A DNA stretch of 57,711 bases from a virus (taxonomy: Duplodnaviria > Caudoviricetes). The DNA is taken from positions 1-57,711 of the IMG/VR virus record IMGVR_UViG_3300009506_000037; one strand, given 5' to 3'. This document shows, piece after piece, positions 556 through 56,202 of the stretch. The position numbers were made by a program, and so were the translations under genes. Positions within the stretch are counted from its first letter, which is position 1. The number at the start of each line of letters is the position of its first letter. The notes under the pieces are model-generated. The model was given only the letters and a program-made list of their open reading frames with translations. It was not told the origin of the DNA and searched no databases.

Positions 556-861
556 ATGTCCGATATCAATGTCCATTCCGATGAAGCCCTTCGGAATCTA
601 ATGAAACAGTACCGTGACGGCATCGAGGCCCACCTGAACAGCGAGATTAAGGTGATCGTCAATCGGGCCATCAACGCATCCAGTCCGGTCATTACCGCCA
701 GCGCGGCCTACAAGCAGGTCGCTCCGGAAGTGGTTAAGCTGCTGTACGCCTATGTCCGGTCCAACCGGGCAGAGTGGAGCGGCGGACCTGACGTCTCGTC
801 TAACGTCGTCGAGGCCATGTGGCGGGAAACAGCCCTCGCCATGATGGGGAAGTGGGTCTAA
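556..861 (+). CDS. Hypothetical protein
   Basis: 101-aa ORF with GAGG RBS; its stop abuts a ribozyme. Confidence 0.75.
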   Translation: MSDINVHSDEALRNLMKQYRDGIEAHLNSEIKVIVNRAINASSPVITASAAYKQVAPEVVKLLYAYVRSNRAEWSGGPDVSSNVVEAMWRETALAMMGKWV

Positions 862-922
862 GTCGAAACGCCCCTCAGGGGGCGTCTGGCCGGGTGGTCC
901 CCGGTCACTGATGAGACAGCCA
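862..922 (+). ncRNA. Type II hammerhead ribozyme HH6 (predicted cleavage after C886)
   Basis: GTC-GAAA-CGCCCC(TCAG)GGGGCG-TC|TGGCCGGG..CCCGGTCA-CTGATGA-GAC; loop TGGT pairs with tail GCCA. Confidence 0.93.
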
Positions 923-937
923 ACAACAGGAGGCACC

Positions 938-9820: not shown

Positions 9821-10114
9821 TTATAAGCGAAGCTCATGCCACGGCACGTCGCCGCGGAGCTCCTCACGAGGGATGCCGGACTCTTCCTCGACATCTTCCA
9901 GATATTCCAAAGGGATACCGCGCTTGTCACGGTTCAGCCATGCCCAGATCTTGCTCGGGTCTACCTTGTGCCGGATACCACGACTGCGAAACCGCTCTGT
10001 CAGAGTCCGGCCCGCTTCGGCGAGCCCGCCCATCTTTTTGATGGCCTCGGCGCCCTTCAGCTGGTTTTGTTCAAAGACCTCGGACTGGTCCAGTGGTTTC
10101 AATTCATCGTTCAT
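9821..10114 (-). CDS. Cro/YdaS-like HTH transcriptional regulator
   Basis: AIKKMGG...IWAW....IP......EE.SGIPREELR.D pattern. Confidence 0.75.
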   Translation of the reverse strand: MNDELKPLDQSEVFEQNQLKGAEAIKKMGGLAEAGRTLTERFRSRGIRHKVDPSKIWAWLNRDKRGIPLEYLEDVEEESGIPREELRGDVPWHELRL

Positions 10115-10144
10115 TACTGCTTTTCCTCTGTTAGGGGTAAAAAA

Positions 10145-10187
10145 ATTGTAATCTACACTTGACGATTCGTCAATCGTCGATTATTAT
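10145..10187. promoter_or_regulatory. Back-to-back divergent sigma70 promoters sharing a palindrome
   Basis: + strand TTGACG(10159)-17-TATTAT; - strand TTGACG(10173)-17-TACAAT; palindrome TTGACGAtTCGTCAA. Confidence 0.8.
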
Positions 10188-10193
10188 TCCCAA

Positions 10194-10995
10194 CGTGCTC
10201 GGAACAATAAGCCATGGCGACATGGTGAATGGGGTAAAGCCAACATAGCCCCGCCTATTCGTAGGTGCCTCCGAGCAAGCTGAGTCCACGGGGTATGCCC
10301 CGGCCTTCGTTCCTGACGGGGGATAGTGACGAGTGATTAGGACTGCACTGGGCGTAATAATCAAAGGCCTTGGCCCATCGTGAGGTGGGCTGCAGTAGGA
10401 AAGCGAGTCATGATAGGACAAAGAGTAGGGCTGTAGTCAGAGCCGGCAGGTGAAGGCGAAGTCCAGACTGTTGCGGTCGAGGTCGAAGGATCTCAGTGGT
10501 CGCAGTAGAGCAGCTTAGTACCCGGCAGGAGAACAGCAGAAGGTGGGTGGCATATCGTCGGGGCAACCTGATGACACCACAGGGCAGCGCTCATCTTCGT
10601 TGGTTAGCAACGTAGCTCAATGGTAGAGCACACCCCTTGAAGGGTGCTGTTGCCGGTTCAAATCCGGTCGACGCATAAAAATGCAAAGACGCTGTCCGGC
10701 GTAGTGTGAAAGTGGCTTAAACCTGCGGCCTTCGGGTAACGCAGGGTCCCCAAAGTCGCAAGCTGAGGGGGCTCCGTGACGGAGAGCACTCGGGTCCTTT
10801 GGCCGGGAACCGGGGTATCGAGAGGGCGGAGTGGCGCTACGGAATAGGTCTATCGCCTGACCTGTAAACTAAACGGCAGTCATGATCTTGTACGCCAGCG
10901 TCACTTCGGTGGGTTGGCGTGGATAACCCGGCAACCGTGGGTCGCAAGCCTGCGGGTAATCTGGGGAAAGCGGGGCAATCGGAAATTGCTTAATC
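10194..10995 (+). ncRNA. Large structured ncRNA, GOLLD-like candidate
   Basis: About 800 nt with no credible ORF, directly behind a consensus promoter; many GNRA/UUCG-capped helices; embedded tRNA-like domain. Confidence 0.6.
10606..10676 (+). tRNA. Degenerate tRNA-like element (6-nt anticodon loop CTTGAA, mispaired acceptor stem)
   Basis: D arm TAGCTCAATGGTAGAGC; stem CACCC/GGGTG; T arm GCCGG-TTCAAAT-CCGGT; no CCA. Confidence 0.65.
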
Positions 10996-11021
10996 TCAGC
11001 ATTTCCATTTATACTAATCTC

Positions 11022-11549
11022 ATGGATAAATGTAAATCATCAATCTGTGAGAGAATGGCAGCGGCAGGATCTCGGGGGTATTGTAGGGGTCACTATCAGC
11101 GCCTACTACGCGGCACGTCACTGGATACGCCGGTAGGGAAAAACAACTATCAGCAGCCCGCGAGCACGCGCAGCTGCGAGGTCGATGGGTGCTCCCGCCC
11201 TCACTATGCGACCGGGTTATGCCGGCTACACTGGAGAAGGAAGCGGGAAGATAGAGATCTCAGCGCCCCGGTAAGGAAGTACGGGGAAGGCCGAAGCAAA
11301 ACAAGAGCCGGGTATATTTACGTGCTCGGCGACGACGGCAAGCGAGTTCTTGAACACCGCCTTGTGATGAGTCGGCATCTGGGTAGAGAGTTACTTGCCT
11401 CAGAAAACGTCCACCACATTAACGGAATCAAGGACGACAACAGGCTGGAGAACTTGGAGTTATGGACTACCTCCCAGCCATCTGGTCAGCGAGTCGCGGA
11501 TAGGCTTGAATGGGCTAAGAAATTCATCGAGCTGTATGACGTTTTTTGA
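11022..11549 (+). CDS. HNH endonuclease with N-terminal Zn-binding repeats
   Basis: EHRLVM...ENVHHINGIKDDNRLENLELW; two C-x4-C...GxC..H repeats. Confidence 0.9.
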   Translation: MDKCKSSICERMAAAGSRGYCRGHYQRLLRGTSLDTPVGKNNYQQPASTRSCEVDGCSRPHYATGLCRLHWRRKREDRDLSAPVRKYGEGRSKTRAGYIYVLGDDGKRVLEHRLVMSRHLGRELLASENVHHINGIKDDNRLENLELWTTSQPSGQRVADRLEWAKKFIELYDVF

Positions 11550-12213: not shown

Positions 12214-12402
12214 ATGGCGCGTGCACGATATAAGACGTGGGGCGATTACCAGAAGCAGACCGTCCGCGAGTACAAACGAACCCCGACCCAGAGAAAAGCC
12301 AAACAGGTCATCATATCTCAGAATCGGGGGTCCGTGATTGTTAATCGAGAGGAGATCCCCAGCTTGATTAATGCTCTTCTCGCCATCGGAGATCTGAAAT
12401 AA
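12214..12402 (+). CDS. Hypothetical protein
   Basis: AGGAGA RBS; coupled to recT. Confidence 0.65.
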   Translation: MARARYKTWGDYQKQTVREYKRTPTQRKAKQVIISQNRGSVIVNREEIPSLINALLAIGDLK

Positions 12403-13343
12403 TGGCAGGACAAATTGTAGGCTGGAAACAGTCCATCGGCAAAGCGAAGCAGCGCTTCAAAGACATCTCCAAGATGGCCAACACCGGGATGGTGTGGGAG
12501 CGTGAGAGCATGTTCGCCCTGCAGGCTGTCAAGAAGAGTGACTTCCTGCAGAAGTGTAACACCGAGTCCATCCGTGATGCTGTGCTGAACGTGGCCAGCA
12601 TCGGTCTCTCCTTGAACCCGGCAGAGAAGCTGGCGTATTTGGTCCCGCGTGACGGTATCGCGGTACTGGATGTCAGCTATCAGGGCCTGCTCAAGCTGGC
12701 CACCGATTCCGGTTCGGTTATGTGGGCCAAGGTTGAGCTGGTCTACGAGAACGACGAGTTCGAATACCTCGGCATGAATACCATGCCACACTTCAAACCG
12801 TCTGACCCCTTCGATACTCACCGCGGTAAGCTGCGCGGCGCCTTCTGTGCCGCCCGCCTGTCGAATCAGGAAATGCTTATCGAGCTGATGGGGGTCGATG
12901 AAATCCACAAGGTTCGCGAGAAGTCCAAGGCCTACACCCGGAAGAAGGACGGCAAGCACAAGCCGTCCGGCCCATGGGTGGACTGGTACGAGGAGATGGT
13001 CAAGAAGACCGTCATCAAGCGCGCCTACAAGTCGTGGCCGAAGAGTATTCGCATGAGCGAGGCTATCGAGATCCTGAACCAGCACGAGGGTATCGACTTT
13101 GATACCTCCCCGGCCAGCAAGACAGAGGAAGCTGCTGTGCTGCTGGTCAATGATGCGCAGGCCAAGGAACTGACTGACCTCATAAACGCATCTCATGTGG
13201 ACATAAATAAAATTTATAAGGCGTTCGAGATTGAGCACCTGACCGATCTGCCTGCCGAGAAGTTCGGCGAGTGCAAGGCCCGGTTAAATGCCGCCAAAGA
13301 CGCATACGATAAGAAACATGCCAACAAGGGAGAACGACTCTGA
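12402..13343 (+). CDS. recT: RecT/Redbeta-family single-strand annealing protein
   Basis: GLSLNP...AYLVP...SYQGL; PW..WYEEM.KKTVIKR. Confidence 0.9.
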   Translation: MAGQIVGWKQSIGKAKQRFKDISKMANTGMVWERESMFALQAVKKSDFLQKCNTESIRDAVLNVASIGLSLNPAEKLAYLVPRDGIAVLDVSYQGLLKLATDSGSVMWAKVELVYENDEFEYLGMNTMPHFKPSDPFDTHRGKLRGAFCAARLSNQEMLIELMGVDEIHKVREKSKAYTRKKDGKHKPSGPWVDWYEEMVKKTVIKRAYKSWPKSIRMSEAIEILNQHEGIDFDTSPASKTEEAAVLLVNDAQAKELTDLINASHVDINKIYKAFEIEHLTDLPAEKFGECKARLNAAKDAYDKKHANKGERL

Positions 13344-14002
13344 TGCGCCAGCTGCAGGCGAGCAATCACCCTCAGGGAACTGAGGAATGGTTTCGTGACC
13401 GGCGTGGTCGTCTGACCGGGTCGGATATGCGGACCATCATGAACGGCGGCAACAGGTCGTGGATCACCCTGTTGGAGCGGAAGAAGCACGAAATCGAATT
13501 CCCCGATGAGGCGCTGGGGGACGAGGCTGATGCTCCGTCCTTGCGCTGGGGGAATGAGAACGAGCCCCGGGCCATTGCTCACTATGAGTTGATCTACAAC
13601 GTGGACGTGGAGCGGGTCGGCTTTGTCCCACATCCGACCGTGCCGTATGTTGGCTGCAGCCCGGACTTTCTGAACCGTGACGAGGGCGTGGTCGGCGAGA
13701 CGAAGTGCCCGTACAACGAGGAAGTGCATGCCATGACCGTGGTGCACGGCGCCGGGGTGCAGGAGTACAAACCCCAGATCCAGTGTGAAATCTGGGTGAC
13801 CGGCGCTGATGTGCTGCACTTCATCAGCTACGACCCACGGTACAGGGACCCGGCCAAGCAGCTGATCGTGATACCGGTCCTACCTGACGCGGCATACATC
13901 GAGAAGATGGAAGAAAAATGTGCCAAGTTCTGGGACTATCTGACCACTGATACCCGGCCGGCCGACTTCGGCGGGCTGGATGAAATACCGAAGCTGTTCT
14001 GA
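13343..14002 (+). CDS. YqaJ/lambda-exonuclease family nuclease
   Basis: QGTEEW...R.G.LT.S; WG...EP.A; SPD; ETKCP; QIQ. Confidence 0.9.
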   Translation: MRQLQASNHPQGTEEWFRDRRGRLTGSDMRTIMNGGNRSWITLLERKKHEIEFPDEALGDEADAPSLRWGNENEPRAIAHYELIYNVDVERVGFVPHPTVPYVGCSPDFLNRDEGVVGETKCPYNEEVHAMTVVHGAGVQEYKPQIQCEIWVTGADVLHFISYDPRYRDPAKQLIVIPVLPDAAYIEKMEEKCAKFWDYLTTDTRPADFGGLDEIPKLF

Positions 14003-20485: not shown

Positions 20486-23400
20486 TTATTTGCTCAACCT
20501 CTCGTACCGTTTCTTCTTCATCTTGTTATAGATCCGGCTGAATTCCTGCATTACCTTCTCCCGGCGGGCTTTCAATGCCTTGATACGGTCATGCTTGACC
20601 CGCTTCGGCATGTCTTCCTTATTCTGCAGGTAGTGGATCTCAGTGTTCAGCTTCTTGATCTGCTCGTTAAACCGCTTCATCTGGTGCTCGCCCATCCAGA
20701 TCAGCTCGTAGTTATTGCGCTCGAAGTCCCGCACCAGCAGCGCGTCCTCCTTGCTGGCGACCTCCTTCTTCATTTTCTGGTGGGCCTTGGTGATCTGCTC
20801 GACCTCGGTGCGCTGGTCGTAGAAGGCACGCGGCACATCCCATTCGGTACGCTCGCCGATAACCTTCCGAGCAAATGGCACCTTGTTGTAGGGAATCTCA
20901 TCCCCATAGGCCAGCTTATTGTACATCAGGGTCGGGTATTCCACGCCCATGCGGGAAATGAATGCCCCGGCGCCACCGGTCACGAAGTTGATCCAGTGAT
21001 CCATTGTCTCCGGCGAGATATCGATGAGCCCGGATTCGTACTTGCTGCCACCGGTGAGGCTGTTCAGCTGCTCGGCGAACCACTTGGTGGCCGGGTTGAC
21101 GCTGCTCCAGTACCGCTGGCTGTCCGGAATCTGGGGACCGAAGGCCGGCTGGTCCGGCATGATCGGGGACCCCATGAAGTTCTCGTTGGTAGCCAAGTCG
21201 ACAATCGGGTCGGTGATGGTCGGGGAAATCATCTTCGCCAGCATGACCTCCATGTAGTCACTGTCCGAGTTGCCGATCGGGTTGAAGGAATCGATGAGAG
21301 TTACGGCGATGTTTACAGCTACCTTACCCAGTTTTTCGGGCGGCGCATGGATGGCGTCGCTGATGCTCATGCCGACCACGTGCGGTACGTTGTACCCGTA
21401 CGGCAGCGGGAACTGGAACCGGTCCTGACATTCTCCCAACGGGTTCATGACAATCAGGTTGCGGCGCTTAATCCAGTCCGGGATCTTGTCGTAGCAGTTC
21501 TCCCCGTCCTTATCGATGCCGGCCATCAGGCGGTTCAGCTCGGTCAGGCCGAACGCGGCGACCGCGATTCCGGCCAGCACTTTCTGCACCCGGGGGCTTT
21601 TGGCCGCCTTCCACATGGTGGCGGTGCCCTGAACGCTGGCGTTATAGAACAGGTACAGGGCGTTTGCCAGCGTACCCAGCTCGCCCTTCCGGTTGAAGTT
21701 CACGGTCAGGTTCTTGGCGATCGTGGCCGCCTGCTGGTCTGACATACCCATCTCAATGGCATTCTTGAATACAGCCAACCGGGCCGCATTTTCCACAGAG
21801 GCGTTGACATCCATGACATAGTCCTTAACGCCTTTCACGACGCGCAGGACCTTGGCGTAGTTGTCACCCTCCAGCATACGGATATCATTGTTCAGCCGGG
21901 CCCGCTTGGACTCAATAGTTTCCAGCCCGAAGAACCCGATCTTGCCACCAGACTCAGAGAACCGACGGAACCACTGGACCCACTCAGACCCATGCTCGGG
22001 GTTACGCAACCCCTGATAGATGCCCTTCACAGAACTCGGAATGTCCTTGATCATGCGCTTGGCCAGCTCTGACGGGTCCACTTCGGTACGAGCCTGCAGG
22101 TTGATCAGCGCGGTCTGGATGTCTCGGGCCGCGTTGGAGATAACGAACTCGGGGTTGTAAGCGGTATTAACCGCAGCGAGGAACCGGTTGAAGGCAGCCA
22201 GTGTCTGGACAATGGCGCCAGCTTTTTCGACGCCAACATTGGTCATCGCCCGGGCCAGCAGCGGGTCCTTGATTTTGATGTACTTTTCCTGCCCGTCGAT
22301 TTTCACGGACATAACGTCATCTGCCAGCTTGAAGAACGGGTCGCGACGGTAGGCCACCTCAGCGGTTCGCTCGTCATAGACCGGGCGAGTCGGCACGTCT
22401 TCAGGGTTTTCGATAACCTGCCACAGGTCCGGGTTAGGGTTATCCCGTACAAAATTCAGGAAAGCCTGACCGACGGTATTCTTTTCTGCCCGGATGATGG
22501 TCTCCTCCATCTGCAGAATACTGTAGATGATGGGGCTGTCAGCCCGTGAGCGGCGACCCAGAGCCCGTTTGGACTCCCGGCCCTTGATACTGAAGCCGCG
22601 ACCGATGCGCTGGAACAGGCCACCGTCTTCCTCGTAGAAGCCACGCAGCGGGACATAGTGGCCGTATTTCTCGCTCCACATGTCGATATTCTTCTGGGGT
22701 TCCAGTCCCGCTTTCTTCAGCAGCTTGAGGCGGGCGTTGTTGATCCGGTAGACCAGCTTGGCCAACTCCATCTTCTCGTTGTAGGTTCCGTCATTCTTGG
22801 CGATCTGGATGATGGCCTCGGCCTCGGCGTCGGTCATCCCGGATCCCATGACGCCCTGTTCGCGCAGGGTCGGGTTAATTTCCTGAATGTGCGCGTTACG
22901 TTCTGGGGCGTGCATGGCGTACAGAAACTCATCGAGCTGGTCCAGCGTGATGTCAGACTCACTGACAGCCTGCAGGAGCGGTTTCACGTACAGGTCCTCG
23001 AACTTCTCCAGCTCGTACTCTACTTTCCCGTGATACAGCTCCTCCTTCAGGTAGGCGTCGGTTTCTGGGTCAACGGTTACGTCCGGAAGCTCCTGTATCA
23101 CCCGGAGGCGGTCGTATTTGTCCTGCAGCTTGCGTACCAGAGAGCGCCACAATGTTTCACGTGGAACAGCGAACGGACCGTCTGACAGGTTGCCGCCCTC
23201 CTTGGAGCGGGACGCCATGGCCCGGCCTTCCTGCATCGCCTTGTTCCGGCCGGCACGTACCGCCAGTTTCATCCGGCCCAGAAGCCCGGTGATTTCGGTG
23301 TCGGTTACCTTCAGGCTTGGGAAAAACTTCCGCAGGAACTGGCGTACCAATGAGATGGCACGCTGTACCCACGAAGCGCGGGGATTGATTTCGGCTTCAT

Positions 23401-26400
23401 GGGCCAGAAATTCTTCGGCGGCGACCAGCCGTCCTTCCCGGGTGCGCAAGTCCAGATCATATTCCCGGGCAATCGAGCGCAGGCGCGGCTTGTTGACTTC
23501 CGCATTGAAGATCTGGAGCAGCAACGGCTCGATCTGCTTCGGTTCCAGCAGCTGGCGCAGGCCATAATGACCAATCATTTCATGGAACAGCAGGCGCTGC
23601 GCATGTTCAGGACTGCCAATCCGGTCGGCGATCATATAGACCTTGCCGGTATTGGTATCGAACAGGCCGTCGGTTTCGTCCTCGGCATTCTGAGACCGCA
23701 AGAAATCCTGCAAATGGTTGGGCAGCTGGTCGAAGCTATCCAGCACCTCAATGTCCGGGATATTGGTCCACGTGTTCATGATGTGACGCAGCGAGTCATA
23801 GATCTTGGAGACGCTCATGCCACGCTTGGCAGCCTTGCGGGCCATTTTCGGCTGATTCAGCCGCTGGGCATTGATGGCAGCCTGCAGCTCTTCACGGGAG
23901 GTCCGCTTCCAGCTGGTCAGGTCCACGCCCTTGGTGGGTTGGCGACCCTGCGTGCGAGCCATGTCCTGCTCGGTTGACTCCAGCATCTGCAGAATAGCTT
24001 TGACCTCTGGCAGCTTCCCGGACGGGTCGAAGCCAAATTCACCCGGGTCACCAAAATCTCCGGTCAGCACCCGGTACAGAGCATCGCTGATGTTCGTGTT
24101 GTATTCCCGGGCAAAATCCACCGGATTCACGTCGATGCCGAGCTCTTCCATCAGCATCCGTTGTACGCGGAAGGTGACGTCTTCCCATTCGACGGCGCGC
24201 TGTGCCTGAGCCAGTGTCAGCGGGGCCACCTCGAAGTCGATCTGTTTGGGCGGCTTGCCACGCTTTGAGACCCACGTGCGGCCCATACGGCCTTCACGGC
24301 GGCCATCGCCGTACTTGGCCTGCATGATGTCCTCGGTGATGCCGTGCGCCAGTTCGTGGACGATACGCCACTGACGGGTGTACTCGGTATCCTTGAAGGA
24401 CCCGTGCGCCACCCGGGGGTCGTAAATCCACAGTACCCCGTCCTTGTAGCCCTGTTTCTTCAGCTTGGGAATAGCAAATTCCACACCGGCCTCAGGGTCT
24501 TCGTGGAAGGCGAAGTATTTCACCTGATACCCGAAATCGTTCAGCAGATTTTCGACGAGGGTCGGGTCATCTACCAGCGTGTCGAGGTTGTAGATCTTGA
24601 GTGAGTCGGTGGAATCTTTCCCGGGATTGATGGCGCCGAACCGGCCATACACATCGGTCAGCGCGGCGTCCGGGTTGTTCAGTCGAGATAGGGGTACTGG
24701 TGCGGCAAGCGGCCCTTGGTACGACGTGTTCCATCCGTACTTTCTTGCGACGGTTTGGCCTGCTTCGATTGCGGCTTGGCGCCGATCACGAATCCACGGG
24801 AGTAAATCGGGTCGTCCGAGCTCGCTGATTTTAGCGGCGTATTCCTGACCTTCGGTAGCTTTTGTCCAGTCATTTGAGTGGTACCCTCCTTCTGCCTTGA
24901 ATTGTGTGAATTCAGGGATATCGAAACCAGTGAAAGTATGCACCACCTTGGTCATTTTGTCGATAAAATCTTTATCTGACGTCAGGAACGGCTTACCGTT
25001 TTCGTTCCGGAAATTGATAAACCGCAGCTTACCGTCGACCAAAGTGAATTCGACTCCGGGCAGGAACTGGTTTGAGTGGTCATAGAATTCCATCGCCATC
25101 TGGTCAGTAATCGGACGGTCGGCAGTAATTTGCAGACCGACGGCAGCTTTCTTACCAGTTAGCGTGGGGTCAGCGCGGTGCCACGGCACAGCGTCTTGGG
25201 TGAAAATCATGCCCACAATGTTGGCGTACAGGTCGGCCAGCTGAGGATCGTAGGCGCCTTCAATCTTCTCGGCCACGATGTGGGTCAACATGTTCGGGCT
25301 CACGGCCAGTTCGAAGCTGCCCATGGACTGCTCAGTCCGGGCCAGTGGTGCGCCCAGCTTCTCGATAACCATGTCCTGCCCATCACGGCCGGTGATCACA
25401 TCCAGCATAGCCTGATTGAAGTCAACGACTTCGTCGGTGCTGGCGGTATGGATACCCGGGAACATTCCGGATGAGACCGACGGACGGGCCTCCCATGTCA
25501 CGCTTTCGGTGGCACGGTTCAGGTATGTCGCAAAATCGACCGGCGCCGGCGGGACAAACTTGCCCTTAACCTTCTTGGCGGCATCGCTATTCCGGGCATA
25601 GAACCACAGCCCAGCCTGTACCTCACGCGGCAGATAGCTGGTGCCATGCTTGGCATTGTAGGCCTCGGTGATATCGATGGTCAGATCGTGGGCAAACGCA
25701 TACTGCCCGGCCCCGGCCCTGACACCGTCAGCGCTTTCCGGATAACCGAACAGGCGCAGCATCCAGCGGTCCTGCGTGCTGGCGTTGTCGAAATAATTGG
25801 TGCCGAAGGTGGCGTCGTGCAGGTTCATATAGAACGACATCAGCTTGTTATCGACGCCGGGCACAGAGACGTCCATGGTGGGCGCTTCCAGAATGCCACG
25901 CACCAGCTTTTTGGTGCGGTTCGGGAACCGTCCAGCCTCAGGCTCCATGTTGCCCCGGGAGATCTCGTAGATGGATTTTACGGCCGCGGTGGTATTACCG
26001 CCGACCTGATTGGCCTGTGAGTACAAGGACATCAGGCGCACCAGATTCTCAGCGGTCTGGCGATCGCCGTTGGCGGCCTTGCGGATGGCTTCCCCGGAAC
26101 GGTCGTACCACTCCATGGTGAACGGGGTCTGGGCCAGCGGGTCTTCCAGAATATTCAGCATGCGGCGAACCAGCCCGGCGCGCTTCTGCATCGAGTTGAT
26201 GCCCGGGGGAGCCCCTGACAGGTCGCCCTTCGCGTTGAACTTGCGGGGCTTGGCAGTGCGCCGGTAAAGGGTGTCTGCCTGAGATTTGGCGTGCTTCTCC
26301 GGAACGATCGTGATGCCCTCGGGACTGAACATAATCACGTCACCGGTGTCATCGGATATGGCAGCGTCGTAACCCTGCCGTTTCAGCTTCTTCAGCAGCT

Positions 26401-29400
26401 CCGGCTTGTCACGAAGCGTCCGCCAGTCCTCATCCATAATGGTGACCGGGTTCTTGTAGTCCAGCTTGGCCTTAATGACCCGCTTGCCATGCTGTTTCGC
26501 AACCGACCGGCTCCGGGTGAAGTGGCCAGCCACCCCTTCCTGAGTCTTAAACTGGTCAAATTCGGCGTTGGTTCCGTGATAGTAGGCCTTGTTGCCGCGG
26601 CTCATGCGCACGCCCACATCCTGACTAGCTTCGCCGAACTGCTGCTTGATGGCCTCGGAATTCGGGTAGGTGATATCAATCAGGCCGCTAATGAACGGGG
26701 ACTTCCCGGGCTGTTCCGCGTTGCGCTGGTCATACGACTGCGGCTGCAGATATGTTTCAGTAAAGCCCATGGTCTTGGTGCCATATTTGGCATCGACATT
26801 CTTGATAACAACCGGGACTTCCTTGATGCCGGCCCGGGCCAGTGCAGCCATACGGTGGCGGCCTTCATGCCCGACAATCTTCGGGATACCGCCATCCTCG
26901 GTGCTGATATGCAGGAACGGAGTCTGGATCTCGTTGGCCAGCTCCTCGGTATCTAGCGGGCCAGTTTCGCCATATATGGTTCGCGGGTTACCGGTGGCGC
27001 GTACAAAGTCATCCGGGTTGATGTAGGCCATTCCTGCGATCACCCGGCCGTCCGGGTACGCATATTCAGAAAAGATGTTCCGGATCCGGTCATCGGTCAG
27101 GCCTACCTTGTCCTGCCCCATCTGGATATTTTCTTCGGTGGTGCGCTGGGCGCCACGAGACAGCTTCGGTTCCTGCAGGCCATACTCGGCAGCAACGGGC
27201 TCAGTCTTCTGGCCGGTTTGCACCCAGTTCTTGAATTCCTCGATGGGCATGGCAACGATGGAGTCCAGCCCCTTCCAGTCCTTCGAGTAATTGTTCATGT
27301 AGACCTGACGGGCCTCTTCCTCACTGTTCACGCCGAGGACGGCCTTGTGCTCATCGAACTTCCCGGTGGTCGGGTTCTTCTGGTCCACCACGTATACGGT
27401 GTCAGTGTTCTCGGCATTCGGACCAAGGAAAACGTCGACCTCTTCGCCGTCGGCTCCCTTGGTCATCTTGATATGGCCGTAGGGATTCTCCATGGTGTTG
27501 TCCCAGACATTGCCATTCTTGTCAGAACCGGTGCGCACGGTGCCACGCGGGTTCTCAATGGCGATATCCAGTCCCTGCACGTTCACGACGCCGGGTTCCT
27601 GCGGGTTGGCTTTGGTCTGTTCCTCGGCCTTGGCGATGTTCAAGCCATATTTCTGTTCAGCTTGCTGGAAGGCAGCTTCCATGGCGGTCGGCTCTTTGCC
27701 GGTGACCTGACGCTCTGCGGCACGGTTTTCCAGCGCTGACTGGACCTTGTCCGGCGCGGTCTCAGGCCGGGCGTTGTCCTTCTCCAGCTGGGAGAATCCG
27801 AGGTCCTGCTCCAGCGCCTTCATGGTTTTCTGGTCAGCCTCGTAGATATCAAAGGCTTCTTTCACGGAGCGGCTATAGTCCTGCTGCGCTTCGCCAGCCG
27901 CATCGGTGGCCTGCTGCAGCTCGGAGTCTGGCGCATTCTCCTCGGCCAGCTTGTTCAGGCGGTCAATCGCTGCCTTCAGCCGGTTCCGGGAGGTATTGAT
28001 GCGCTGCTCATGGATGCCACCAACTGAGGCGGCAACCATGTCAACCGGGGCAGTGATCGCCTCGCCGGCTGCTTCAGCCAAAATCTGGCCCCATTCCAGC
28101 GGGCGGCCAGCAGCGAGCTCTCCACCACCTTCGCCGATAGCACCCATGGTGCCTTGCACGGCAGTCTGGACCGGGACATTAATGACATGGCGCGCAACCA
28201 CATTCGCAACAGCCTTCGGTACTAGGGTGCGGCCAGCCAAACCGAAGCTCAGGCCGTCCAGCAAACCAACAACGGCAGCATGGGCTCGAGCTTCCTTGGT
28301 GATCTGCTTGTACATCTGAGGGTCAAGCAGCGCGTTTCGGACAGCTTCAATATTGTTCGTGTCGACCCCGTTACGCTGCAGAGCTCCCTGCAATTCAGCG
28401 GCAAAGTCGACATTGTAGGAGCCTTGACCTGTGGCCAGCATGCCAAGCCACGGTCCACCAAGAGCGGCAGCCACGGAGCCCTTGGCCAGCGGCTCAGCCA
28501 TCATCGGCAAGGAGGTGGTTCCCACTTCACCGACAAACGAGACAGGGTCGCGCTTCACATAACCCCATGCGGTTTTGAAGTCGTTTGCTTTGAAGGCTTC
28601 TTCCGCTACGGGAGCGGTCTGGATCTTGGCGGCCTCAGCCCCCTTCTTCGTAGAAATAGTCAGCAGGCGGTCAATCTTGTCACGCTCACGCTGCAGGGCC
28701 TCACCCATAACCCGAGGGTTGGATGACATGGTCTTGCCGGTTTCACTGATTAGCGGACGGCCAGCTTCATCAGAAGGCTCGCCCGGGCGCGCACTAATGG
28801 CGCTGCGCATCAGTGGTTGGTTACGTTGTACGTCAGGCATTTGCGGGGCCAGCGAGGCGGAGCGGGTCTTCGCTGAGGTCTCGGCCTCATCAATCGAATT
28901 GAATCCCTCCAGCTTGCGACCGGTTTCCGGATCCACCCCACCATTCTCAATAATGATGCGTTCCGCTTCGCGCTGCGTAACCTGCTTCCCATTGTACATG
29001 GACGGGATATTGGTCGGCTTACCGCCATTAATTTTTGGGTTGGTTACCGTGATGGTGCGTTCGGTCGAGAACGACCCGTCCGGGTTGCGGACAATCGGGC
29101 GTCCTTCTGAGGTGTATTTCCCGGTCGGGACATCCTCAGCGGTCATGCGGTCGGTATAGTCTTCGCGCAGGCCGTGGTAACGGCTGGCAATATCCGCAGC
29201 GCCGCTCATGGCCTTGGCGCTTTCCAGCTGTTTCATACCGCGGGTCAGGCGCTCGTCGACCACCTCACCGGTCGGGCGGGCTTCATACTGTGCCTGACGA
29301 TAATCGAAGTCAGCATAACGGGTGTCCGCGTCGAACTTCTCCCGGACCAGATCCATCGACATCGGTTTCCCGGTCTGTTTCTGGAGTTCCTGTACCCGGG

Positions 29401-29506
29401 GAGCGACTACATCCTCGAAGTATTTCTGGCGGACTTTTTCTTTTGTCGCAGAATCGAGCTTCTGAAACCGCTCATCCTGCACCACTTCTGCCCAAGTTTT
29501 GGACAT
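20486..29506 (-). CDS. Giant (3006 aa) large polyvalent protein, probably virion-injected
   Basis: Inorganic-pyrophosphatase-like domain (IENPRG..R.G....W...M..PYG.I....GADG..VDVF), ParB-like EGRHR, ART-like YHGT..F..F, zincin motifs HELAH and HEMIGH, LPD38-like C-terminus. Confidence 0.85.
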   Translation of the reverse strand: MSKTWAEVVQDERFQKLDSATKEKVRQKYFEDVVAPRVQELQKQTGKPMSMDLVREKFDADTRYADFDYRQAQYEARPTGEVVDERLTRGMKQLESAKAMSGAADIASRYHGLREDYTDRMTAEDVPTGKYTSEGRPIVRNPDGSFSTERTITVTNPKINGGKPTNIPSMYNGKQVTQREAERIIIENGGVDPETGRKLEGFNSIDEAETSAKTRSASLAPQMPDVQRNQPLMRSAISARPGEPSDEAGRPLISETGKTMSSNPRVMGEALQRERDKIDRLLTISTKKGAEAAKIQTAPVAEEAFKANDFKTAWGYVKRDPVSFVGEVGTTSLPMMAEPLAKGSVAAALGGPWLGMLATGQGSYNVDFAAELQGALQRNGVDTNNIEAVRNALLDPQMYKQITKEARAHAAVVGLLDGLSFGLAGRTLVPKAVANVVARHVINVPVQTAVQGTMGAIGEGGGELAAGRPLEWGQILAEAAGEAITAPVDMVAASVGGIHEQRINTSRNRLKAAIDRLNKLAEENAPDSELQQATDAAGEAQQDYSRSVKEAFDIYEADQKTMKALEQDLGFSQLEKDNARPETAPDKVQSALENRAAERQVTGKEPTAMEAAFQQAEQKYGLNIAKAEEQTKANPQEPGVVNVQGLDIAIENPRGTVRTGSDKNGNVWDNTMENPYGHIKMTKGADGEEVDVFLGPNAENTDTVYVVDQKNPTTGKFDEHKAVLGVNSEEEARQVYMNNYSKDWKGLDSIVAMPIEEFKNWVQTGQKTEPVAAEYGLQEPKLSRGAQRTTEENIQMGQDKVGLTDDRIRNIFSEYAYPDGRVIAGMAYINPDDFVRATGNPRTIYGETGPLDTEELANEIQTPFLHISTEDGGIPKIVGHEGRHRMAALARAGIKEVPVVIKNVDAKYGTKTMGFTETYLQPQSYDQRNAEQPGKSPFISGLIDITYPNSEAIKQQFGEASQDVGVRMSRGNKAYYHGTNAEFDQFKTQEGVAGHFTRSRSVAKQHGKRVIKAKLDYKNPVTIMDEDWRTLRDKPELLKKLKRQGYDAAISDDTGDVIMFSPEGITIVPEKHAKSQADTLYRRTAKPRKFNAKGDLSGAPPGINSMQKRAGLVRRMLNILEDPLAQTPFTMEWYDRSGEAIRKAANGDRQTAENLVRLMSLYSQANQVGGNTTAAVKSIYEISRGNMEPEAGRFPNRTKKLVRGILEAPTMDVSVPGVDNKLMSFYMNLHDATFGTNYFDNASTQDRWMLRLFGYPESADGVRAGAGQYAFAHDLTIDITEAYNAKHGTSYLPREVQAGLWFYARNSDAAKKVKGKFVPPAPVDFATYLNRATESVTWEARPSVSSGMFPGIHTASTDEVVDFNQAMLDVITGRDGQDMVIEKLGAPLARTEQSMGSFELAVSPNMLTHIVAEKIEGAYDPQLADLYANIVGMIFTQDAVPWHRADPTLTGKKAAVGLQITADRPITDQMAMEFYDHSNQFLPGVEFTLVDGKLRFINFRNENGKPFLTSDKDFIDKMTKVVHTFTGFDIPEFTQFKAEGGYHSNDWTKATEGQEYAAKISELGRPDLLPWIRDRRQAAIEAGQTVARKYGWNTSYQGPLAAPVPLSRLNNPDAALTDVYGRFGAINPGKDSTDSLKIYNLDTLVDDPTLVENLLNDFGYQVKYFAFHEDPEAGVEFAIPKLKKQGYKDGVLWIYDPRVAHGSFKDTEYTRQWRIVHELAHGITEDIMQAKYGDGRREGRMGRTWVSKRGKPPKQIDFEVAPLTLAQAQRAVEWEDVTFRVQRMLMEELGIDVNPVDFAREYNTNISDALYRVLTGDFGDPGEFGFDPSGKLPEVKAILQMLESTEQDMARTQGRQPTKGVDLTSWKRTSREELQAAINAQRLNQPKMARKAAKRGMSVSKIYDSLRHIMNTWTNIPDIEVLDSFDQLPNHLQDFLRSQNAEDETDGLFDTNTGKVYMIADRIGSPEHAQRLLFHEMIGHYGLRQLLEPKQIEPLLLQIFNAEVNKPRLRSIAREYDLDLRTREGRLVAAEEFLAHEAEINPRASWVQRAISLVRQFLRKFFPSLKVTDTEITGLLGRMKLAVRAGRNKAMQEGRAMASRSKEGGNLSDGPFAVPRETLWRSLVRKLQDKYDRLRVIQELPDVTVDPETDAYLKEELYHGKVEYELEKFEDLYVKPLLQAVSESDITLDQLDEFLYAMHAPERNAHIQEINPTLREQGVMGSGMTDAEAEAIIQIAKNDGTYNEKMELAKLVYRINNARLKLLKKAGLEPQKNIDMWSEKYGHYVPLRGFYEEDGGLFQRIGRGFSIKGRESKRALGRRSRADSPIIYSILQMEETIIRAEKNTVGQAFLNFVRDNPNPDLWQVIENPEDVPTRPVYDERTAEVAYRRDPFFKLADDVMSVKIDGQEKYIKIKDPLLARAMTNVGVEKAGAIVQTLAAFNRFLAAVNTAYNPEFVISNAARDIQTALINLQARTEVDPSELAKRMIKDIPSSVKGIYQGLRNPEHGSEWVQWFRRFSESGGKIGFFGLETIESKRARLNNDIRMLEGDNYAKVLRVVKGVKDYVMDVNASVENAARLAVFKNAIEMGMSDQQAATIAKNLTVNFNRKGELGTLANALYLFYNASVQGTATMWKAAKSPRVQKVLAGIAVAAFGLTELNRLMAGIDKDGENCYDKIPDWIKRRNLIVMNPLGECQDRFQFPLPYGYNVPHVVGMSISDAIHAPPEKLGKVAVNIAVTLIDSFNPIGNSDSDYMEVMLAKMISPTITDPIVDLATNENFMGSPIMPDQPAFGPQIPDSQRYWSSVNPATKWFAEQLNSLTGGSKYESGLIDISPETMDHWINFVTGGAGAFISRMGVEYPTLMYNKLAYGDEIPYNKVPFARKVIGERTEWDVPRAFYDQRTEVEQITKAHQKMKKEVASKEDALLVRDFERNNYELIWMGEHQMKRFNEQIKKLNTEIHYLQNKEDMPKRVKHDRIKALKARREKVMQEFSRIYNKMKKKRYERLSK

Positions 29507-55286: not shown

Positions 55287-55554
55287 TACACCATACCGAC
55301 GACGAAATTGACTTCGATTAGGACAGTCGGAAACAGGGAAGTCCAGCAGGAAGCTGGCGATTGAAAGGGATGAACCGCACGGCCCGGTATAAGAGTCGGC
55401 ACCCAGAGATACTGCACGAAGGGGCAGAAGCAACGGGGGCAAGCCAAAGGGCTTTCGCTGAGAGTCCTTTGCCTTGTCAACCAATGGGACGCGATTGACA
55501 GTGCACGCTGAGTCAACACTCAGTCACCACTGAGTTCACACTGAGAGCCAACTA

Positions 55555-55616
55555 GTCGAAACCCCGGGCGACCGGGGTCAGCAGGAACTGGCCTACCTGC
55601 TCTGATGAGACAGGCC
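55555..55616 (+). ncRNA. Type II hammerhead ribozyme HH1 (predicted cleavage after C55579)
   Basis: GTC-GAAA-CCCCGG(GCGA)CCGGGG-TC|AGCAGG..CCTGCT-CTGATGA-GAC; loop GGCCT pairs with tail AGGCC. Confidence 0.95.
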
Positions 55617-55635
55617 CAACCAACAGGAGATCGAC

Positions 55636-56083: not shown

Positions 56084-56124
56084 TTGTCTGGGCCCTGTCC
56101 CTTGGTGTCATCGCATTCCTGTAA
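56068..56124 (+). CDS. 18-aa hydrophobic micropeptide
   Basis: GAGG RBS; MVTFLIVWALSLGVIAFL*; its TAA abuts HH2. Confidence 0.5.
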   Translation: MVTFLIVWALSLGVIAFL

Positions 56125-56185
56125 GTCGAAACGCCCTTCGGGGCGTCTTCCCGGGGTAGGTTCCCGGGAACTGATGAGACAACCT
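56125..56185 (+). ncRNA. Type II hammerhead ribozyme HH2 (predicted cleavage after C56147)
   Basis: GTC-GAAA-CGCCC(TTCG)GGGCG-TC|TTCCCGGG..CCCGGGAA-CTGATGA-GAC; loop AGGTT pairs with tail AACCT. Confidence 0.95.
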
Positions 56186-56202
56186 GAGAGAGGAGACCCA
56201 TC

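What the first reader, a model, noticed from the sequence alone, without database searches (positions are those of the whole stretch)
10194..10995. ~800-nt giant structured ncRNA (GOLLD-like candidate)
Seen: a near-consensus promoter (10159-10187) is followed by about 800 nt lacking a credible ORF in an otherwise gene-dense genome. The region is packed with tetraloop helices (TCGTCGGG-GCAA-CCTGATGA, CC-TTCG-GG, CAC-TTCG-GTG, CCTGCG..CGCAGG, GGTC-GCAA-GCC) and contains a tRNA-like domain. Known: GOLLD RNAs are about 800 nt, phage-associated, often adjacent to or containing tRNAs, and of unknown function. Inference: this is a GOLLD member or a new class of large ornate RNA. I cannot confirm the family by eye.
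Basis: partly seen in the sequence, partly recalled or inferred. Interest (0 to 1): 0.8.

Follow-up and report, generated by a model that had tools for sequence, protein, structure and literature searches.

The report
Divergent phage GOLLD RNA, decayed tRNA
This roughly 810-base non-coding stretch of a complete phage genome encodes a GOLLD RNA, a known kind of giant phage RNA that builds RNA-only cages; this copy belongs to a divergent branch that the standard database threshold misses and carries a decayed tRNA-like insert.

Summary
Window 10194-11002 (+) is a GOLLD RNA.

- **Family match:** the Rfam GOLLD model matches 10538-11002 over its full length (112.7 bits, E 1.4e-30). That is below the curated cut-off of 150, so a default scan misses it.
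- **A clade below the cut-off:** four relatives (L146, L161, L160, L085) also score 102-135 bits.
- **5' half:** 10194-10537, which Rfam does not model, is homologous to the 5' domain of 47 other GOLLD loci.
- **Covariation:** on a six-sequence alignment not fitted to structure, 84% of cells pair against 37-43% in slid controls. Compensatory changes occur in 108 of 194 pairs against 30-36.
- **Not coding:** there is no coding signal.
- **tRNA-like module:** the linker holds one at 10606-10676. Its D, anticodon and T stems covary, but it has a 6-nt anticodon loop, a 4/7 acceptor stem and no CCA, so it is unlikely to decode.
- **Context:** the gene is the first element of an early rightward operon. 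It starts at back-to-back sigma-70-like promoters shared with a Cro/YdaS-like gene, and this layout recurs in two related phages.
- **Mechanism:** assembly into a homo-oligomeric cage with the tRNA-like module inside is inferred by homology only.

Verdict: a new member of a known kind, of modest interest.

The parts
10159..10187 (+). Sigma-70-like promoter of the GOLLD gene (TTGACG, 17 nt, TATTAT). The predicted start is about 10193-10195.
   Evidence: 10 of 12 matches. An equivalent site lies directly upstream of the GOLLD in L146, L161 and L160 (10 of 12 each); none was found by the scan in L085. Shared DNA with L146 begins at 10194.
10145..10173 (-). Divergent sigma-70-like promoter for the Cro/YdaS-like gene. 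Its -35 box overlaps that of the GOLLD promoter inside the palindrome TTGACGA-T-TCGTCAA (10159-10173), a possible operator.
   Evidence: 10 of 12 matches. The palindrome was read. The same back-to-back layout is seen in L161 and L160. The operator role is inference.
10194..10537 (+). GOLLD 5' domain (the 'cap' domain in the solved structure), not covered by the Rfam model.
   Evidence: An iterated nhmmer profile gave 48 hits including the window (E 2.7e-33, window 10228-10548). RNAalifold predicted 83 pairs, 26 of them compensatory, in three sequences. Core helices covary across 45 distinct sequences. Helices 1-16 also support it.
10538..10599 (+). First long hairpin of the Rfam GOLLD model, tipped by a GCAA tetraloop (10563-10566).
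   Evidence: Helices 17-18 are 87-88% paired, and 12 of their 23 pairs carry compensatory changes.
10600..10697 (+). Variable linker, which is disordered and lies inside the cage in the solved GOLLD. It includes the conserved AAAATGCAAAGACG motif (10679-10692).
   Evidence: alignment. The motif is invariant in 6 of 6 sequences. The interior position comes from PMC12286853 (passages read).
10606..10676 (+). tRNA-like module. The D, anticodon and T arms are intact, the anticodon loop is 6 nt (CUUGAA, 10636-10641), the acceptor stem has 4 of 7 pairs, and there is no CCA.
   Evidence: The D, anticodon and T stems are 100% paired in 6 sequences, with 9 of 14 pairs compensatory; the acceptor is 20-60% paired apart from its two innermost pairs (92%). 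Contigs of three runs cover the 6-nt loop with no difference.
10698..11002 (+). GOLLD 3' core domain (the 'ring' domain), ending in the GUGGAUAA ... UAAUCUCAG motifs.
   Evidence: helices 26-37. A pattern built from these motifs retrieved contigs of which 46 of 50 pass Rfam's GOLLD cut-off.
9821..10114 (-). Context: a 97-aa Cro/YdaS-like helix-turn-helix gene transcribed divergently from the GOLLD.
   Evidence: Pfam YdaS_toxin, E 5.9e-6, 26.4 bits, below its cut-off of 30. Homologues of about 40% identity sit at the same divergent position in L161 and L160.
11022..11549 (+). Context: an HNH endonuclease gene between the GOLLD and the RecT/YqaJ recombination genes (12402-14002). It is absent at this position in L161 and L160.
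   Evidence: Pfam HNH_3 E 7.5e-10 and PHROG HNH families. tblastn found no HNH homologue in 0 of 166 loci at E up to 1e-4. RecT follows the GOLLD in L161 and L160.

Best explanation
Window 10194-11002 (+) encodes an RNA of about 809 nt of the GOLLD family, from a divergent clade that scores below Rfam's gathering cut-off.

Shown by sequence analysis:
- It has the two-domain GOLLD architecture: a 5' domain (10194-10537), a long hairpin (10538-10599), a linker (10600-10697) and a 3' core (10698-11002). The structure is kept by compensatory substitutions.
- The linker holds a tRNA-like module whose three arms are under structural selection. Its acceptor stem and anticodon loop are not those of a decoding tRNA.
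- The gene sits directly behind a near-consensus sigma-70-type promoter, back to back with the promoter of a Cro/YdaS-like regulator gene. It is the first element of the early rightward operon: GOLLD, then an inserted HNH gene, then RecT and YqaJ.

Inferred by homology with the two solved GOLLD RNAs (a 14-mer and a 12-mer):
- The transcript self-assembles without protein into a dihedral cage of about 12-14 copies.
- The 5' domains form the two caps and the 3' domains form the rings.
- The linkers, here each with a tRNA-like module, point into the interior.

Inferred from the anatomy of the module: it stays tethered inside the cage as a tRNA mimic and is not matured into a translating tRNA.

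The biological role of GOLLD cages is unknown. My best guess is that the cage displays or sequesters tRNA-shaped modules to engage a host factor that recognises tRNA during early infection.
For: Family membership:
- Rfam GOLLD matches 10538-11002 at 112.7 bits, E 1.4e-30, model positions 1-416 of 416 (confirmed).
- 79 of 98 model pairs are canonical in the window.
- With the Rfam structure laid on three relatives, 82.5% of cells pair against 34.2-41.2% when slid, and 30 of 90 pairs are compensatory against 2-6.
- With the full structure laid on six relatives aligned by MAFFT, 84.2% pair against 37.1-43.4%. Compensatory changes are in 108 of 194 pairs against 30-36, and 0 of 500 shuffles reach the observed values.
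- The 5' domain is homologous to 47 other GOLLD loci, with covarying core helices.
- Specificity controls: 47 of 50 motif-selected viral records hit the GOLLD model at E up to 0.001 (46 over the cut-off). 0 of 38 unrelated viral records did.

A discrete module:
- The only DNA shared with the L146 locus is 10194-11000 (74.6% identity over 833 columns). No flanking protein is shared.

Not coding:
- Substitutions against four relatives show no 3-base periodicity, and open frames are at most 107 aa.

Hint of expression:
- Contigs identical to the window in two libraries labelled metatranscriptomic (10205-10834 and 10414-10890) lie wholly inside the RNA. So does one contig from an RNA-seq run of another study (10281-10525).

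Cage model:
- PMC12286853 (passages read) and PMC12990946 (passages read).
Against: - The Rfam score is below the curated cut-off (112.7 against 150). 11 of 98 model pairs are non-canonical and 8 fall in gaps; two small hairpins of the model are replaced.
- Folding energy is only weakly better than shuffles (z -2.47; 1 of 20 shuffles as good).
- No tRNA island lies nearby. ARAGORN finds only the linker module in the whole 57.7-kb genome, whereas GOLLDs are described as often lying near tRNA islands.
- Oligomerisation, the in vivo ends of the transcript and any function are untested.
- The two best RNA-library holders are flagged 'probably DNA', and contigs cannot show ends or levels.
- No intrinsic terminator follows 11002, so the RNA could be the 5' part of a longer early transcript.
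Confidence: 0.92

Rival explanations
1. The embedded element is a working tRNA gene, and the GOLLD acts as its precursor or store (the 'inhibited storage' idea). The tRNA would be released by RNase P and 3' processing and used in translation.
For: - The review PMC12990946 (passages read) proposes this for a tRNA-Phe embedded in a Mycolicibacterium GOLLD.
- Some linker modules look like true tRNAs. L085 has 7 of 7 acceptor pairs. Three linker modules end in an encoded CCA.
- Linker anticodons include ones typical of phage tRNAs, such as UCU, UAG and UAU.
- The D, anticodon and T stems are conserved by compensatory change.
Against: - In the window the anticodon loop has 6 nt. This is confirmed in contigs of three runs.
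- The acceptor stem has 4 of 7 pairs with two adjacent mismatches, and there is no CCA.
- Its tRNA-model score (43.3 bits) is the lowest of the clade, whose other members score 54.5-65.
- Across 43 linker modules only 3 have 7 of 7 acceptor pairs and 3 have CCA. Among 411 scorable neighbouring phage tRNAs, 341 have 7 of 7 pairs and 327 have CCA.
- 5 of 43 linker modules have 8-nt loops.
- Behra et al. (PMC6582537, passages read) call the module in M. aubagnense a pseudo-tRNA and detected no separate expression.
Confidence: 0.07
2. It is a separate, new class of large RNA that merely shares some motifs with GOLLD, since it fails the Rfam gathering score.
For: The window scores 112.7 bits against 150. 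The whole clade scores 102.3-134.8 bits. Parts of the 5' domain and two 3' hairpins are clade-specific.
Against: - The model match is full length with E 1.4e-30.
- Both domains are homologous to GOLLDs that pass the cut-off. L163 passes at 190.2 bits and aligns along the whole length.
- The helix order, linker position, linker motif and 3' terminal motifs are the same.
- 0 of 38 unrelated viral records reach even E 0.001.
Confidence: 0.03
3. It is a long structured 5' leader that regulates the downstream early genes in cis (HNH, RecT, YqaJ), not a free-standing RNA.
For: There is no terminator-like site after 11002. The HNH start codon is only 20 nt downstream. The GOLLD-RecT order is conserved in L161 and L160.
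Against: - The same RNA occurs in L146 and L085 with unrelated neighbours.
- In L146 the last GOLLD hairpin is followed by a T-run that scores as a terminator.
- GOLLDs in general lie in many contexts, often among tRNA genes.
- RNA-library contigs stay within the element (a weak hint).
Confidence: 0.03
4. The region encodes one or more small conserved proteins.
For: ORFs of 83, 52 and 43 aa exist on the minus strand.
Against: - Substitutions are evenly spread over the three codon positions: 68/76/61 against L146, and 102/100/94, 125/118/99 and 107/109/106 against L161, L160 and L085.
- Changes are compensatory in stems.
- No frame longer than 107 aa is open in any of the six relatives.
Confidence: 0.005

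Closest known systems
GOLLD RNA (Rfam RF02032). Solved examples: env-38 (833 nt, 14-mer) and Streptococcus agalactiae GOLLD (about 700 nt, 12-mer), as described in PMC12286853 and PMC12990946.
   Same: - Similar size: 809 nt against 833 nt.
- Encoded by a phage.
- A less conserved 5' domain and a conserved 3' domain, separated by a hairpin and a variable linker.
- The same 3' helices and terminal motifs, with a full-length Rfam match.
- Domain lengths are alike. The window has a 344-nt 5' domain, a 62-nt hairpin, a 98-nt linker and a 305-nt core. In env-38 the 5' region is 1-420, the linker 497-538 and the 3' region ends at 833.
   Different: - It scores below the Rfam gathering score and belongs to a clade of at least five that all do (window, L146, L161, L160, L085).
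- The window region is about 56% G+C.
- Two small hairpins of the model are replaced.
- The first hairpin ends in a GCAA tetraloop instead of the model's A-rich loop.
- There is no tRNA island in the genome.
- It sits at an early divergent promoter next to a Cro-like gene.
- Its oligomeric state is unknown.
Mycobacterial GOLLDs with an embedded tRNA or pseudo-tRNA: M. aubagnense (Behra et al. 2019, PMC6582537), and a Mycolicibacterium tRNA-Phe in J13/15, cited in PMC12990946 from Morgado et al. 2020, which is not held in the library.
   Same: A tRNA-shaped element lies inside the GOLLD linker. In M. aubagnense it is called a pseudo-tRNA with no separate expression detected, and an HNH endonuclease gene lies in the same cluster.
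   Different: Those copies lie inside large tRNA arrays of bacterial chromosomes. This one is in a complete phage genome with no other tRNA, and its module has a 6-nt anticodon loop.
ROOL RNA (the other phage-borne RNA that forms cages).
   Same: A large ornate phage RNA with a disordered internal linker that assembles into an RNA-only cage.
   Different: It is unrelated in sequence and structure. No ROOL match was found in 10000-11200 even at E up to 10.
tRNA-like modules inside larger non-coding RNAs, for example bacterial Y-RNA-like YrlA.
   Same: A D/T 'elbow' mimic is embedded in a larger RNA and is not used for decoding. The YrlA model gives a weak match across the module (21.1 bits, E 0.13, below its cut-off of 69).
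   Different: There is no significant match and the surrounding architecture differs. This is only an analogy for how the module might be read by proteins that bind tRNA.

Membership tests
GOLLD (RF02032) | Score at or above Rfam's curated gathering score (150 bits). | tested here: not met
   112.7 bits, although E is 1.4e-30 and all 416 model positions are matched. This is a curators' threshold, not a biological feature. Four relatives also fall below it at 102.3-134.8 bits.
GOLLD (RF02032) | Conserved secondary structure of the 3' domain, kept by covariation. | tested here: met
   79 of 98 model pairs are canonical. 82.5% of cells pair against 34-41% when slid, and 30 of 90 pairs are compensatory. 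Helices 17-18 and 26-37 agree.
GOLLD (RF02032) | Conserved sequence motifs of the 3' domain (GUGGAUAA ... AAAG ... UAAUCUCAG, CGCAAG loops). | tested here: met
   The motifs are present at 10921-11000. The pattern built from them retrieved at least 119 viral contigs. 50 of these were tested, and 46 pass the Rfam cut-off.
GOLLD (RF02032) | A large, less conserved 5' domain upstream, giving a total of about 800 nt. | tested here: met
   The 5' domain is 344 nt and the total 809 nt. It is homologous to the 5' domains of 47 other loci, with covarying helices.
GOLLD (RF02032) | Encoded in a phage or prophage. | tested here: met
   The window is a complete virus record with direct terminal repeats. 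It carries terminase, a head-tail adaptor/portal-like protein, RecT and other phage genes.
GOLLD (RF02032) | Often next to tRNA genes, or with a tRNA in the linker. | tested here: inconclusive
   There is a tRNA-like module in the linker but no other tRNA in the 57.7-kb genome. This is a frequent association rather than a defining feature.
GOLLD (RF02032) | Assembly into a protein-free homo-oligomeric cage (12- to 14-mer). | not testable with these tools
   Known for env-38 and S. agalactiae GOLLD only.
ROOL | Match to the ROOL covariance model. | tested here: not met
   No ROOL match among the 5 matches listed at E up to 10 in 10000-11200, nor at gathering level in the whole window.
Canonical tRNA (for 10606-10676) | A 7-nt anticodon loop, a 7-bp acceptor stem, and a 3' end that can carry CCA. 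| tested here: not met
   The loop is 6 nt and the acceptor has 4 of 7 pairs in the best register. The MFE fold keeps only 2 acceptor pairs. There is no CCA. The D, anticodon and T arms are intact.

The most novel reading that the evidence does not exclude
The tRNA-shaped element in the GOLLD linker may not be a passenger tRNA gene. It could be an integral, caged tRNA mimic whose anticodon loop is free to vary or is under diversifying selection.

- Across 43 linker modules the body and elbow are conserved at a fixed distance from the 3' end.
- Acceptor stems are degenerate and CCA is missing.
- Loops differ in sequence and in length (6, 7 or 8 nt), even between near-identical bodies.
- The window's 6-nt loop shows that decoding is dispensable.

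One mechanism that fits is a multivalent decoy or sponge, about 12-14 copies per cage, for host factors that recognise tRNA. Anticodon nucleases of anti-phage defence are one candidate, and an early promoter suits such a role.
Probability: 0.15. Interest if true: 0.75.

Novelty: new member of a known kind. Interest (0 to 1): 0.33.

Why it matters
**Annotation:** a default Rfam scan leaves this 800-nt gap unexplained, and at least five phage GOLLDs share the problem. The family's cut-off or seed therefore misses a G+C-rich clade.

**Biology, two modest points:**
- This copy sits at a defined regulatory position. It is the first product of an early promoter, back to back with a Cro-like gene, and the layout is conserved in three phages. 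That gives a testable handle on when GOLLD acts.
- Its linker module cannot be a normal tRNA, and a survey of 43 such modules shows the same tendency. This argues against 'tRNA storage' as the general purpose of the cage and for a structural or decoy role.

Neither point changes what GOLLD is known to be.

Tried and rejected
**Searches that found nothing or nothing useful**
- The default Rfam scan of the whole window found no GOLLD. Only the E-value mode did.
- blastn of 10100-11100 against 50,697 GenBank phage records gave one 56-nt match, to the tRNA-like part.
- The 16-mer CGTAATAATCAAAGGC from the 5' domain hit 40 viral contigs, but only 2 (L146, L085) are related. The other 38 hold no GOLLD. 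It is not a GOLLD hallmark.
- A stricter 3' pattern found only L085.

**Tests that came out negative**
- I looked for a partner of the anticodon loop within the same RNA, using reverse-complement 5-mers mapped to alignment bins in 33 distinct GOLLDs. The best bin had 5 sequences, against a mean of 4.5 and a maximum of 7 in 200 permutations. There is no support for an in-cis kissing partner.
- HNH adjacency is not a general feature: 0 of 166 loci hold a homologue of this HNH.
- Folding energy alone is weak evidence.

**Expression evidence that cannot be used**
- Flanking genes have no contig cover in the four runs laid, but holes in contig cover prove nothing.
- Small-share soil and other runs were not used to infer habitat.

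**Sources not available**
- Morgado et al. 2020 and Weinberg et al. 2009 are not held in the library. What I say about them is second-hand, from papers that cite them.
- The supplementary GOLLD alignment and covariation table of PMC12286853 could not be seen. They may already include this clade and the linker modules.

Full report
**1. What is in the sequence**

The window is a complete 57,711-bp virus record with direct terminal repeats.

Between a 97-aa minus-strand gene (9821-10114) and an HNH endonuclease gene (11022-11549) lie about 900 bases without a credible ORF. The longest ORF inside 10194-10995 is 83 aa.

A sigma-70-like promoter, TTGACG-17-TATTAT, lies at 10159-10187 (10 of 12 matches). 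It is back to back with a minus-strand promoter at 10173-10145. The two -35 boxes share the palindrome TTGACGA-T-TCGTCAA.

Rfam's tRNA model matches 10606-10676 at 43.3 bits. ARAGORN calls it 'tRNA-???' with a two-base anticodon, which means a 6-nt loop.

**2. Family**

At Rfam's gathering thresholds the window shows only three type II hammerheads and this tRNA match.

In E-value mode the GOLLD model (RF02032) matches 10538-11002 on the plus strand. The score is 112.7 bits with E 1.4e-30, and all 416 model positions are matched. The curated cut-off is 150 bits. No ROOL match appears even at E up to 10.

I mapped the model's consensus structure onto the window. Of 98 pairs, 79 are canonical, 11 are non-canonical and 8 fall in gaps.

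I checked that sub-threshold scores of this size are not noise.
- A motif pattern taken from the window's 3' end retrieved at least 119 viral contigs.
- I tested 50 of them. 47 match GOLLD at E up to 0.001 and 46 exceed the cut-off.
- 0 of 38 unrelated viral records match at all.

**3. Relatives and the clade below the cut-off**

The closest relative is L146. nhmmer gives 415.9 bits, and blastn gives 74.6% identity over 833 columns.

The shared DNA runs exactly from 10194 to 11000. No flanking protein is shared. The conserved unit therefore begins at the predicted transcription start and ends at the end of the Rfam model.

Further relatives are L161, L160, L085 and L163.

Rfam scores within the group:

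| Locus | GOLLD bits |
|---|---|
| L085 | 102.3 |
| window | 112.7 |
| L161 | 122.2 |
| L160 | 128.4 |
| L146 | 134.8 |
| L163 | 190.2 |

Five members fall below the cut-off of 150. L163 passes and aligns along the whole length. This is a divergent clade of GOLLD, not a separate class.

**4. Structure and covariation**

The six sequences were aligned by MAFFT without any fitting to structure. On that alignment I tested a combined structure:
- the Rfam 3' structure;
- an RNAalifold 5' structure derived from three sequences;
- the tRNA cloverleaf.

Results:
- 84.2% of 1,133 cells form standard pairs, against 37.1-43.4% when the partners are slid by 1-3 columns.
- 108 of 194 pairs carry changes on both sides, against 30-36 in the slid controls.
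- 0 of 500 shuffles reach any of the observed measures.

The Rfam structure alone on three sequences gives 82.5% paired against 34-41%, and 30 of 90 compensatory pairs against 2-6.

The 5' half is not modelled by Rfam. An iterated sequence-only profile links window 10228-10548 (E 2.7e-33) with 47 other loci.

On that alignment of 45 distinct rows, 69 of the 83 predicted pairs could be scored. 64.6% of cells pair against 37.6-45.0% when slid. Seven helices are strongly covarying. For example, 10231-10235 with 10248-10252 and 10436-10439 with 10454-10457 pair in 88-100% of sequences, with two to four pair types in all but one invariant position. Other predicted helices are specific to the clade.

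Folding energy alone is weak evidence. The z-score is -2.47, and 1 of 20 shuffles folds as well.

Substitutions show no codon periodicity: 68/76/61 against L146, with similar figures for three others. No frame above 107 aa is open in any relative. The region is not translated.

**5. The linker module**

The tRNA-like element lies in the variable linker between the first hairpin and the 3' core. This is where embedded tRNAs are known to occur in some GOLLDs.

In the six relatives its D, anticodon and T stems are 100% paired, with 9 of 14 pairs compensatory. The arms are therefore under selection. Apart from its two innermost pairs (92%), the acceptor stem is 20-60% paired.

In the window:
- the acceptor has 4 of 7 pairs, with two adjacent mismatches;
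- the MFE fold keeps only 2 acceptor pairs;
- there is no CCA;
- the loop CUUGAA has 6 nt.

The 6-nt loop is not an assembly error. Contigs from three runs cover it without a difference.

I surveyed the fetched loci for comparison. ARAGORN finds 611 tRNAs in 158 loci. Of these, 43 lie in a GOLLD linker at a nearly fixed distance, starting about 390-415 nt before the 3' end.

| Feature | Linker modules | Other tRNAs in the same loci (411 of 568 scorable) |
|---|---|---|
| 7/7 acceptor pairs | 3 | 341 |
| 6/7 acceptor pairs | 16 | 53 |
| 5/7 acceptor pairs | 24 | 15 |
| Encoded CCA | 3 | 327 |
| Anticodon not 3 nt | 5 of 43 (4-base, i.e. 8-nt loop) | 2 of 568 |

For every tRNA I took the best of several registers. 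That favours pairing, so the contrast is conservative.

In several pairs the tRNA body is 94-98% identical while the GOLLD 3' domains are 73-90% identical, yet the loops differ in sequence and length. Examples are L018, L036 and L041.

One pair goes the other way. L069 and L072 have GOLLD domains 98% identical but bodies only 94% identical.

I found no site elsewhere in the RNA that is complementary to the loop beyond a permutation control.

Behra et al. already called the module in M. aubagnense a pseudo-tRNA with no separate expression. The idea is therefore not new, but the breadth of the pattern may be. I could not see the supplementary files of the structural paper, which may cover it.

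**6. Context**

- The upstream divergent gene is a Cro/YdaS-like helix-turn-helix protein (Pfam E 5.9e-6, below its cut-off).
- Homologues of about 40% identity occupy the same divergent position in L161 and L160. They carry the same weak Pfam match.
- Both of those loci have the same back-to-back promoter pair and a RecT gene after the GOLLD.
- In the window an HNH endonuclease gene lies between the GOLLD and RecT/YqaJ. It has no homologue in any of 166 loci, so it looks like a mobile insertion.
- A promoter-like site also precedes the L146 copy. There the last GOLLD hairpin plus a T-run scores as a terminator. The window has no such terminator.
- The phage's terminase is 40-44% identical to those of phages of Proteobacteria. 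The host is unknown.

**7. Expression**

The best DNA holders are runs labelled marine sediment metagenome; one may be the source of the record.

- Two libraries labelled metatranscriptomic, but flagged 'probably DNA', hold contigs identical to 10205-10834 and 10414-10890.
- An RNA-seq run of another study holds 10281-10525 with one difference.
- All of these lie inside the element.

This is a weak hint of an abundant transcript and no more.

**8. How it most likely works**

Shown here: this is a GOLLD-family RNA gene with both domains, a conserved promoter and a non-decoding tRNA-like module.

Inferred from the solved GOLLDs (passages of PMC12286853 and PMC12990946):
- The RNA self-assembles into a dihedral cage of 12-14 copies.
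- The 5' domains form the caps and the 3' domains the rings.
- The linker, and hence the tRNA-like module, lies inside.

I put cage assembly at about 0.7.

The function of GOLLD is unknown in the literature I read. Because the module here cannot be a normal tRNA, 'storage of a usable tRNA' is unlikely for this phage (about 0.07). A tethered tRNA mimic that engages a tRNA-recognising host factor is my preferred guess, but it is speculative (about 0.15).

**9. Verdict**

This is a new member, within a small divergent clade, of a known family. Its interest is modest.

Noticed in passing
window 861-925, 55554-55619, 56124-56188 (all + strand): Three type II hammerhead ribozymes score above Rfam's gathering score (60.1, 39.2 and 51.8 bits against 37). 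They lie near the two ends of this terminally repetitive phage genome. Their relation to the terminal repeats or to transcript processing was not examined.
   Followed up: no
43 GOLLD linkers among loci L002-L159 (for example L018, L036, L041, L077, L098) and window 10606-10676: tRNA-like modules sit at a fixed place in the GOLLD linker. As a class they have degenerate acceptor stems (3 of 43 with 7/7 pairs, against 341 of 411 neighbouring tRNAs), rarely encode CCA (3 of 43 against 327 of 411), and have loops of variable sequence and length on conserved bodies.
   Followed up: partly
window 10145-10187; L161 11517-11559; L160 2876-2918: A back-to-back promoter pair with overlapping -35 boxes lies between a Cro/YdaS-like gene and the GOLLD, and is conserved in three phages. 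In the window the overlap is a perfect 15-nt palindrome, followed by a second palindrome, AATCG-T-CGATT (10172-10182). Both could be operators.
   Followed up: partly
window 11022-11549 (+): An HNH endonuclease gene with no obvious Shine-Dalgarno sequence is inserted between the GOLLD and RecT. It is absent at this position in the syntenic L161 and L160. An HNH gene next to a GOLLD was also reported in mycobacterial tRNA clusters.
   Followed up: partly
window 20486-29506 (-): A single 3,006-aa ORF takes up 9 kb of a 57.7-kb phage genome. It was not analysed.
   Followed up: no
L085 2302-2376 (-), L164 97-169 (-): ARAGORN reads the linker tRNA of L085, and one tRNA beside the linker motif in L164, as tRNA-His with the unusual anticodon AUG. 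L085's module is the only one in the window's clade with a perfect acceptor stem.
   Followed up: no
L146 7204-7230 (+): In L146 the terminal GOLLD hairpin (UAAUCUCA loop) has a longer stem and is followed by a T-run, so it scores as an intrinsic terminator. The window and the other relatives lack the T-run.
   Followed up: partly
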